Part shown: one piece after another, positions 1-628 of the stretch
Layout: each line of letters opens with the position of its first letter
How positions within the stretch are numbered: position 1 is the stretch's first letter
Sequence record: DQ006817.1
Source of the DNA: a phage
DNA length: 628 nucleotides
Reading direction: 5' to 3' (one strand)
Notes under the pieces: generated by a model
What the model was told of the DNA's origin: nothing
Database searches by the model: none
What the model saw: the letters and a program-made list of their open reading frames with translations, nothing else
Program-made: the position numbers and the translations under genes

Positions 1-24
1 ATTTAACTGAGTATGAGAGGACAT
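1..24 (+). other. Partial 5' untranslated leader of a Qbeta-like ssRNA phage genome (5' end truncated by the window)
   Basis: The 24 nt upstream of the A2 start carry an in-frame TAA at 4-6 and a purine-rich Shine-Dalgarno element. From memory, the Qbeta leader is about 60 nt and begins with a G-run that is absent here, so the window likely starts inside the leader. Confidence 0.6.
15..21 (+). promoter_or_regulatory. Shine-Dalgarno / ribosome-binding site for the maturation protein gene
   Basis: Purine run GAGAGGA at 15-21 (core GAGG at 17-20) lies 3-4 nt upstream of the ATG at 25-27. The spacing is on the short side but acceptable, and the same AGAGGACAT-ATG context is what I recall for the Qbeta A2 start. 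Confidence 0.6.
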
Positions 25-628
25 ATGCCTAAATTACCACGTGGTCTGCGTTTCGGAGCCGATAATGAAATTCTTAATGATTTTCAGGAGCTCTGGTTTC
101 CAGATCTCTTTATCGAATCTTCCGACACGCACCCGTGGTACACACTGAAAGGTCGTGTCTTGAACGCCCATCTAGATGACCGTCTGCCTAATGTAGGCGG
201 TCGTCAGGTAAGGCGTACTCCACACCGTGCTACCGTCCCGATTGCCTCTTCAGGCCTTCGTCCGGTAACAACCGTTCAGTATGATCCTACAGCACTGTCG
301 TTCTTATTGAACGCCCGTGTTGATTGGGATTTCGGTAATGGTGATAGTGCGGACCTTGTCATTAATGACTTTTTGTTCCGCACCTTCGCACCTAAGGAGT
401 TCGATTTCTCGAATTCCTTAGCTCCTCGTTATACCCAGGCCTTCTCCGCTTTTAATGCCAAGTATGGCACTATGATCGGCGAAGGGCTCGAGACTATAAA
501 ATATCTCGGGCTTCTACTGCGCAGACTGCGTGAGGGTTTCCGTGCTGTGAAGCACGGCGATTTACGCGCTCTTCGTAGGGTTATCCAGTCTTACCATAAA
601 GGTAAGTGGAAACCGGCTACTGCTGGTA
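25..628 (+). CDS. A2: Maturation protein A2 of a Qbeta-like ssRNA phage (pilus-binding, RNA-binding; in Qbeta also the lysis protein that inhibits MurA); N-terminal 201 codons, 3'-partial
   Basis: ATG at 25-27 is preceded by the SD. The frame is open for 201 complete codons (25-627) plus one base, with no stop. Manual translation gives MPKLPRGLRFGADNEILNDFQELWFPDLFIESSDTHPWYTLKGRVLNAHLDDRLPNVGGRQVRRTPHRATVPIASSGLRPVTTVQYDPTALSFLLNARVDWDFGNGDSADLVINDFLFRTFAPKEFDFSNSLAPRYTQAFSAFNAKYGTMIGEGLETIKYLGLLLRRLREGFRAVKHGDLRALRRVIQSYHKGKWKPATAG, which I recognise as near-identical to the Qbeta A2 N-terminus. Recognition is from memory, not a search. Confidence 0.92.
   Translation, partial: MPKLPRGLRFGADNEILNDFQELWFPDLFIESSDTHPWYTLKGRVLNAHLDDRLPNVGGRQVRRTPHRATVPIASSGLRPVTTVQYDPTALSFLLNARVDWDFGNGDSADLVINDFLFRTFAPKEFDFSNSLAPRYTQAFSAFNAKYGTMIGEGLETIKYLGLLLRRLREGFRAVKHGDLRALRRVIQSYHKGKWKPATAG

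What the first reader, a model, noticed from the sequence alone, without database searches (positions are those of the whole stretch)
22..492. Several common cloning-enzyme sites, some possibly absent from wild-type Qbeta
Directly visible six-base palindromes include NdeI CATATG (22-27, spanning the start codon), PmlI CACGTG (38-43), SacI GAGCTC (88-93), BglII AGATCT (103-108), XbaI TCTAGA (171-176), AseI ATTAAT (361-366), EcoRI GAATTC (411-416) and XhoI CTCGAG (487-492). From memory, NdeI, SacI and XhoI are native to Qbeta, while the BglII, XbaI and EcoRI sites seem to arise from substitutions relative to it. That could mean silent engineered sites in a cDNA clone, or just natural variation. 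About ten palindromic hexamers are expected by chance in 628 nt, so the count alone is not significant.
Basis: partly seen in the sequence, partly recalled or inferred. Interest (0 to 1): 0.28.

Follow-up and report, generated by a model that had tools for sequence, protein, structure and literature searches.

The report
Chance restriction sites in wild Qbeta-like phage
The cloning-enzyme sites are real, but they are ordinary natural variation in the maturation-protein gene of a wild Qbeta-like RNA phage, not signs of engineering.

Summary
All eight listed hexamers are in the window; BglII lies at 102-107, not 103-108. There are 11 palindromic hexamers in all, against 9.4 +/- 3.1 in shuffles (P = 0.35).

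The window is the last 24 nt of the 5' UTR plus the first 201 codons of the A2 maturation/lysis gene of a Qbeta-like phage (Qubevirus durum, genogroup III). It matches genome positions 38-665. Its closest record is the Brazilian sewage isolate BZ1 (96.5%); laboratory Qbeta is about 93% identical.

NdeI, SacI and XhoI are in every isolate. BglII, XbaI and EcoRI (and PmlI) are absent from laboratory Qbeta.

Only XbaI is unique to the window. It combines C172 (HL4-9 and most isolates, TCTTGA) with A174 (BZ1, TTTAGA), so it is the one-step synonymous intermediate between two wild states.

The 44 differences from laboratory Qbeta are mostly synonymous transitions spread over the window. Five fall in palindromes (4.6 expected). 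None of the four substitutions private to the window touches a site. There is no plasmid match. Verdict: ordinary.

The parts
1..24 (+). 3' end of the 5' untranslated region of a Qbeta-like ssRNA phage genome, including the Shine-Dalgarno-like GAGAGG
   Evidence: It aligns without gaps to positions 38-61 of BZ1 and HL4-9, upstream of the annotated A2 CDS.
25..628 (+). First 201 codons (plus one base) of the A2 maturation/lysis protein gene; the reading frame runs off the window end
   Evidence: Pfam PF03863 Phage_mat-A, 142 bits against a cut-off of 25. 194 of 201 residues are identical to Qbeta A2 of PDB 5VLZ/5MNT, E = 1.5e-132. Annotated as A2 in all matching records.
22..27 (.). NdeI CATATG spanning the A2 start codon; invariant in Qbeta-like phages
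   Evidence: Present in 17 of 17 related sequences that cover it.
38..43 (.). PmlI CACGTG; natural polymorphism (synonymous G39A relative to laboratory Qbeta)
   Evidence: Present in 9 of 17 sequences and in metagenome contig L019. Laboratory Qbeta and BZ1 read CGCGTG.
88..93 (.). SacI GAGCTC, the in-frame codons Glu22-Leu23; invariant
   Evidence: Present in 17 of 17.
102..107 (.). BglII AGATCT (coordinates corrected); natural polymorphism (synonymous C105T relative to laboratory Qbeta)
   Evidence: Present in BZ1, HL4-9, VK, BR12, GIII_C, FrMerlot, FrBurgundy and FrHibiscus (8 of 17) and in L019.
171..176 (.). XbaI TCTAGA; the only site not seen in any other isolate. It lies across the codons His-Leu-Asp (CAT CTA GAT), all synonymous with other isolates
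   Evidence: Absent from all 19 comparison sequences. T171 and C172 are shared with HL4-9 and most wild isolates (TCTTGA); A174 is shared with BZ1 (TTTAGA). No match to the degenerate pattern around it in the viral or metagenome collections.
361..366 (.). AseI ATTAAT; present in most isolates
   Evidence: Present in 16 of 18; VK and BR12 read ATTAAA.
411..416 (.). EcoRI GAATTC; natural polymorphism (synonymous C414T relative to laboratory Qbeta)
   Evidence: Present in HL4-9, FrSangria, TW18, BR12, FrMerlot, FrBurgundy and FrHibiscus (7 of 18) and in L019.
487..492 (.). XhoI CTCGAG, the in-frame codons Leu155-Glu156; invariant
   Evidence: Present in 18 of 18.

Best explanation
The window is a natural, not previously databased variant of a genogroup III Qbeta-like ssRNA coliphage (Qubevirus durum). 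It belongs to the lineage sister to the Brazilian sewage isolate BZ1. It covers the end of the 5' UTR and the first 201 codons of the A2 maturation/lysis gene. The restriction-enzyme hexamers are incidental. Seven of the eleven palindromic hexamers are also in laboratory Qbeta. Six of these are in every isolate and AseI is in most. Four arise from synonymous third-codon-position polymorphisms that circulate in wild populations. From established knowledge, type II restriction enzymes cut double-stranded DNA and the phage genome is single-stranded RNA with no DNA stage. I infer from this that the hexamers have no role in the phage life cycle and are neither selected for nor against as restriction sites. 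The XbaI site most likely arose by a single synonymous CTT-to-CTA (Leu) change on a TCTTGA background. BZ1 then differs by a further CTA-to-TTA change. This ordering is inferred by parsimony.
For: Identity: the window is collinear and gap-free with 17 full-length Qbeta-like genomes at positions about 38-665. It is 96.5% identical to BZ1 and 92-94% to the others. It matches Pfam Phage_mat-A and PDB Qbeta A2.

Natural pattern of change relative to laboratory Qbeta: there are 44 differences. These are 34 synonymous, 7 non-synonymous and 3 in the UTR. 33 of the 41 coding changes are at third codon positions, and transitions outnumber transversions 37 to 7. 40 of the 44 window bases are shared with at least one wild isolate.

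No concentration in sites: 5 of the 44 differences fall in the 66 palindrome positions, with 4.6 expected (binomial P = 0.50). The four private substitutions (positions 5, 159, 186, 514) all lie outside palindromes.

Sites in wild isolates: BglII is in 8, EcoRI in 7 and PmlI in 9 independent isolates, and all three are in a metagenome contig.

The window is not an outlier. Wild isolates carry 8-12 palindromic hexamers in this region and gain 1-5 relative to laboratory Qbeta. The window has 11 and gains 4. It also loses the laboratory strain's TTCGAA at 408.

In a neighbour-joining tree the window is sister to BZ1, with HL4-9 next. There is no match in 72,556 plasmid records. BZ1, HL4-9 and the other GIII strains are environmental isolates from sewage, a hog lagoon and creek water, and are detected in wastewater (PMC6963950).
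Against: The XbaI hexamer itself was found in none of the 19 comparison sequences or the scanned collections. Its natural occurrence is therefore inferred from its component bases rather than observed. The source record of the window could not be located, so its annotation could not be checked. Only about a dozen independent wild lineages are available for comparison.
Confidence: 0.93

Rival explanations
1. The sequence comes from a cDNA construct in which silent restriction sites were deliberately introduced. This could involve all four non-laboratory sites, or only XbaI on the backbone of a wild BZ1-like isolate.
For: All five site-creating substitutions (positions 39, 105, 171, 174, 414) are synonymous. 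The XbaI hexamer is unique among the 19 comparison sequences. The source record could not be found.
Against: Three of the four sites occur in many wild isolates. 39 of the 44 differences from laboratory Qbeta lie outside palindromes, and there is no enrichment in them (P = 0.50). Synonymous third-position change is also the background pattern (33 of 41 coding differences). Both XbaI-defining bases are natural alleles. There is no plasmid match and no vector sequence. The published Qbeta display constructs that I read place their engineered sites (AflII, NsiI, EspI, NheI) in the A1 read-through region near nt 2100-2400, not in A2 (PMC4231119).
Confidence: 0.03
2. The window is a mosaic. It would be either a natural recombinant or an assembly or consensus chimera of co-circulating BZ1-like and HL4-9-like genogroup III strains. 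The XbaI hexamer would then be created at a junction of the two allele sets.
For: At the 37 positions where BZ1 and HL4-9 differ, the window follows BZ1 at 25 and HL4-9 at 12. The XbaI hexamer joins an HL4-9-type base (C172) to a BZ1-type base (A174). Nine of the 22 differences from BZ1 lie in 159-222.
Against: The HL4-9-type and BZ1-type positions are interspersed, not in blocks (16 runs, permutation P = 0.38). This is what is expected if the HL4-9-type positions are simply changes private to BZ1. The window also carries four bases seen in neither parent nor any other isolate.
Confidence: 0.04

Closest known systems
Escherichia phage Qbeta strain BZ1 (FJ483844.1), genogroup III, Qubevirus durum; Brazilian sewage isolate
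   Same: The layout is the same and the alignment has no gaps (genome positions 38-665). Nucleotide identity is 96.5% and 198 of 201 A2 residues are identical. It shares NdeI, SacI, BglII, both StuI sites, AseI, XhoI and FspI, and the A at window position 174.
   Different: There are 22 nucleotide differences. BZ1 lacks PmlI (CGCGTG), XbaI (TTTAGA) and EcoRI (GAACTC). It has I62, D105 and T198 where the window has V, N and A.
Laboratory Qbeta (e.g. AB971354 Anc(P1), AY099114, GQ153931; A2 structures PDB 5MNT, 5VLZ)
   Same: Same gene and genome position. 194 of 201 A2 residues are identical. NdeI, SacI, both StuI sites, AseI, XhoI and FspI are shared.
   Different: There are 44 nucleotide differences (about 93% identity). 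The laboratory strain lacks PmlI, BglII, XbaI and EcoRI, and has a TTCGAA at 408 that the window lacks. The seven residue changes are V69A, A89T, N110D, V133A, Y172F, R177H and N192K.
Wild genogroup III isolates HL4-9 (FJ483841), FrBurgundy and FrHibiscus (PP430142, PP430143)
   Same: They carry PmlI, BglII and EcoRI at exactly the window's positions, and 10-12 palindromic hexamers in this region.
   Different: They read TCTTGA at the XbaI position. They are 92-94% identical to the window.
Engineered Qbeta cDNA plasmids (pBRT7Qbeta and pQbeta8 display vectors)
   Same: They are DNA copies of Qbeta in which restriction sites matter for cloning (PMC4231119).
   Different: They are built on the laboratory Qbeta backbone, and the sites used or added lie in the A1 read-through region. 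The window differs from the laboratory backbone at 44 scattered positions and matches no plasmid record.

Membership tests
Qubevirus (Qbeta-like) A2 maturation/lysis protein gene | The protein matches the Phage_mat-A family (Pfam PF03863) above the curated cut-off | tested here: met
   142.4 bits against a cut-off of 25, E = 2.5e-41, residues 36-201.
Qubevirus (Qbeta-like) A2 maturation/lysis protein gene | Close sequence identity to experimentally characterised Qbeta A2 | tested here: met
   194 of 201 residues identical to PDB 5VLZ/5VM7/7LHD and 5MNT, E = 1.5e-132.
Qubevirus (Qbeta-like) A2 maturation/lysis protein gene | First gene of the genome, starting about 60 nt from the 5' end after a short UTR | tested here: met
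   The window aligns to positions 38-665 of complete genomes whose A2 CDS starts at 62. The window ATG at 25 corresponds to it.
Qubevirus (Qbeta-like) A2 maturation/lysis protein gene | Full-length open reading frame of about 420 codons, followed by the coat/A1 and replicase genes | not testable with these tools
   The window ends at codon 201. The frame is open up to that point.
Qubevirus (Qbeta-like) A2 maturation/lysis protein gene | Binds the F pilus and inhibits MurA to cause lysis | not testable with these tools
   This needs an experiment. It is inferred only from 96.5% residue identity to Qbeta A2.
Engineered cDNA clone with silent diagnostic or cloning sites | The site-creating substitutions are absent from natural isolates | tested here: not met
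   G39A, C105T, C171T and C414T occur in 7 or more wild isolates, and T174A occurs in BZ1. Only the combination TCTAGA is unique.
Engineered cDNA clone with silent diagnostic or cloning sites | Differences from the parental sequence are confined to, or enriched at, the restriction sites | tested here: not met
   5 of 44 differences from laboratory Qbeta fall in palindromes, with 4.6 expected (P = 0.50). For BZ1 the figure is 3 of 22, with 2.3 expected. None of the 4 private substitutions is in a site.
Engineered cDNA clone with silent diagnostic or cloning sites | Vector context or a match to a plasmid or construct record | tested here: not met
   No blastn match in 72,556 PLSDB plasmids. The window starts inside the phage 5' UTR with no foreign sequence. 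The window's own source record was not found, so its annotation could not be read.

The most novel reading that the evidence does not exclude
The most novel reading not excluded is that the window represents a Qubevirus durum lineage absent from the collections searched here. It would be sister to BZ1 and about 3.5% divergent in this region, with a unique XbaI-creating Leu codon (CTA). A less likely alternative is that XbaI was introduced as a marker into an infectious clone of such a wild isolate.
Probability: 0.8. Interest if true: 0.06.

Novelty: not a real feature. Interest (0 to 1): 0.04.

Why it matters
It matters very little. Restriction hexamers in the genome of an ssRNA phage have no biological role, and their number here is what chance gives. 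The practical value is negative. The window should not be flagged as a synthetic or engineered construct. Comparing it with laboratory Qbeta alone is misleading, because wild genogroup III strains differ from the laboratory strain at about 7% of positions. The underlying object, the 5' part of the A2 gene of a Qbeta-like phage, is already well known. The unique XbaI site could serve at most as a convenient RT-PCR/RFLP marker for this lineage.

Tried and rejected
1. Locating the source of the window. A degenerate pattern that matches the window's own sequence at 163-185 found nothing in IMG/VR or the JGI metagenome contigs. An exact 29-mer found nothing in GTDB genome contigs. PLSDB plasmids gave no blastn match. 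The source stays unknown.

2. Gathering more wild relatives. A protein-guided scan added only one contig, found in both the viral and metagenome collections (L019 = L020, BR12-like). Two further loci at 29% identity (L021, L022) are probably spurious.

3. The search for homologous proteins with the 201-residue fragment returned nothing at E <= 1e-40. It therefore gave no extra isolates.

4. Rfam gave only a chance-level isrK match on the minus strand (16.5 bits against a cut-off of 50, E = 0.43). No curated RNA family explains any of the palindromes.

5. The mosaic or recombinant idea for the origin of XbaI was tested with a runs test on BZ1-type and HL4-9-type positions. No block structure was found (P = 0.38).

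6. Enrichment of substitutions in restriction sites was tested and rejected (P = 0.50 for all palindromes, P = 0.24 for the eight listed sites).

Full report
**Observation.** I read the 628-base window and located every palindromic hexamer by script.
- Seven are at the stated coordinates.
- BglII AGATCT is at 102-107, not 103-108.
- Three more palindromes were not listed: AGGCCT at 252 and 437, and TGCGCA at 518. The total is 11.
- Two thousand shuffles of the window give 9.4 +/- 3.1, and 35% of shuffles reach 11.

**What the window is.** blastn against 50,697 phage records finds 34 matches, all of them Qbeta-like phages.
- The best match is strain BZ1 (FJ483844, Brazil) at 96.5%, then HL4-9 at 94.4%. 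Laboratory Qbeta records are at about 93%.
- The window aligns without gaps to positions 38-665 of complete genomes whose A2 CDS starts at 62. Window 1-24 is therefore the end of the 5' UTR, and the ATG at 25 starts A2.
- The 201-residue translation matches Pfam Phage_mat-A at 142 bits against a cut-off of 25.
- It is identical at 194 of 201 residues to the Qbeta A2 chains of PDB 5VLZ and 5MNT.
- No record is identical to the window. A pattern that matches the window itself found nothing in the viral, metagenome or genome contig collections. The exact source is unknown.

- NdeI, SacI, XhoI, StuI at 252 and FspI are present in every sequence that covers them. StuI at 437 is missing only from FrMerlot.
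- AseI is in 16 of 18.
- The laboratory Qbeta lineage reads CGCGTG, AGACCT, CCTTGA and GAACTC at the PmlI, BglII, XbaI and EcoRI positions.
- PmlI is in 9, BglII in 8 and EcoRI in 7 independent wild isolates. These include HL4-9 and BR12 (USA), BZ1 (Brazil), VK and GIII_C (Japan), TW18 (Taiwan) and the Fr-series (USA). All three sites are also in the metagenome contig.

These isolates come from sewage, a hog lagoon and creek water, and the strains are detected in wastewater (PMC6963950).

**The XbaI site.** TCTAGA at 171-176 is in none of the 19 comparison sequences.
- It spans the codons CAT CTA GAT (His-Leu-Asp), which encode the same residues as in all other isolates.
- Most wild isolates read TCTTGA, and BZ1 reads TTTAGA.
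- The window shares T171 and C172 with the former and A174 with the latter.
- The hexamer is thus the single-step intermediate (Leu CTT to CTA to TTA) between the states of the window's two closest relatives.
- This matches the window's position in a neighbour-joining tree, where it is sister to BZ1 with HL4-9 next.
- The ordering of the steps is a parsimony inference. That each base is a natural allele is shown directly.

**Pattern of substitution.** Relative to laboratory Qbeta there are 44 differences.
- They are 34 synonymous, 7 non-synonymous and 3 in the UTR.
- 33 of the 41 coding differences are at third codon positions, and there are 37 transitions to 7 transversions.
- 40 of the 44 window bases are seen in at least one wild isolate.
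- Five differences fall within the 66 palindrome positions, where 4.6 are expected (binomial P = 0.50). For the eight listed sites alone, P = 0.24.
- The four bases private to the window (positions 5, 159, 186, 514) are all outside palindromes.
- Being 'silent' does not single out the site-creating changes, because silent third-position change is the background pattern.

The window is not unusual among wild strains.
- Wild strains carry 8-12 palindromic hexamers in this region.
- Relative to the laboratory strain, wild strains gain 1-5 hexamers.
- The window has 11, gains 4 and loses the laboratory strain's TTCGAA at 408.

**Construct check.** There is no blastn match in 72,556 plasmid records. 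The window has no non-phage sequence at its 5' end. The published Qbeta display constructs I read use or add sites (AflII, NsiI, EspI, NheI, Bpu10I) in the A1 read-through region on the laboratory backbone, not in A2 (PMC4231119).

**Mosaic check.** XbaI joins an HL4-9-type base to a BZ1-type base, so I asked whether the window is a block-wise mosaic. At the 37 positions where BZ1 and HL4-9 differ, the window follows BZ1 at 25 and HL4-9 at 12. The two kinds are interspersed (16 runs, permutation P = 0.38). This is the pattern expected if the HL4-9-type positions are changes private to BZ1. It does not point to recombination or assembly chimerism.

**Mechanism.** From established knowledge, Qbeta has a single-stranded RNA genome that replicates through RNA only, and type II restriction enzymes act on double-stranded DNA. 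These hexamers are therefore not substrates in the phage life cycle. I infer that their presence or absence is a neutral by-product of codon-level drift under purifying selection on A2. No Rfam family accounts for any of them; the only match is a chance-level isrK hit (E = 0.43).

**Verdict.** The engineered-clone interpretation is not supported. What is there is the 5' part of the A2 gene of a wild genogroup III Qbeta-like phage close to BZ1, with restriction hexamers at chance frequency. The interest is low. The only mildly new element is that this exact variant, with its XbaI-creating CTA codon, is not in the collections searched.

Noticed in passing
window 5: A C-to-A change in the 5' UTR (ATTTAACTG against ATTTCACTG). 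It is private to the window: all the aligned relatives that cover this position have C. Its effect, if any, on folding of the 5' domain is unknown.
   Followed up: partly
window 15: The purine-rich stretch upstream of the A2 start reads GAGAGG in the window and in HL4-9, TW18, VK, GIII_C, FrBurgundy and FrHibiscus. It reads AAGAGG in laboratory Qbeta, BZ1, BR12, FrSangria and FrMerlot. This is a natural polymorphism inside the Shine-Dalgarno-like element.
   Followed up: partly
window 159-222: Nine of the 22 differences from the closest relative BZ1 cluster in this 64-nt stretch, including two of the four private substitutions (159, 186). The stretch is also among the most variable across all isolates. 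No block-wise recombination signal was found.
   Followed up: partly
window 88-93 and 487-492: The SacI and XhoI hexamers are in-frame codon pairs (Glu-Leu GAG CTC and Leu-Glu CTC GAG). Their synonymous third positions are invariant in all 17-18 isolates. This could reflect an RNA-structure constraint or just limited sampling.
   Followed up: no
window 25-627 (A2 residues 133, 172, 177): F172 and H177 are shared only with BZ1 among the sequences compared. A133 is shared with BZ1, BR12 and the metagenome contig. The window differs from BZ1 at residues 62 (V), 105 (N) and 198 (A). Whether any of these touch the MurA or pilus interfaces was not examined.
   Followed up: no
window 408-413: Laboratory Qbeta, FrBurgundy, FrHibiscus and the metagenome contig have a TTCGAA (BstBI) hexamer here. 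The window lacks it because of a synonymous T408C change. This shows that palindromes are lost as well as gained.
   Followed up: yes
window 25-627 (protein search): The search of the 5.8-billion-protein collection returned no hit at E <= 1e-40 for a fragment 96.5% identical to the well-known Qbeta A2 protein.
   Followed up: no
L021 711-1130 and L022 4612-4815: Two metagenome contigs (a 50-kb marine contig and SDBV01014924) gave 29% identity tblastn matches to A2 residues about 50-186, with E = 3e-5 relative to the candidate set only. They are probably spurious. A 50-kb contig is unlikely to be a levivirus.
   Followed up: no
window 496-567, minus strand: A weak Rfam match to the isrK sRNA (16.5 bits against a gathering score of 50, E = 0.43). 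I take it to be chance.
   Followed up: yes
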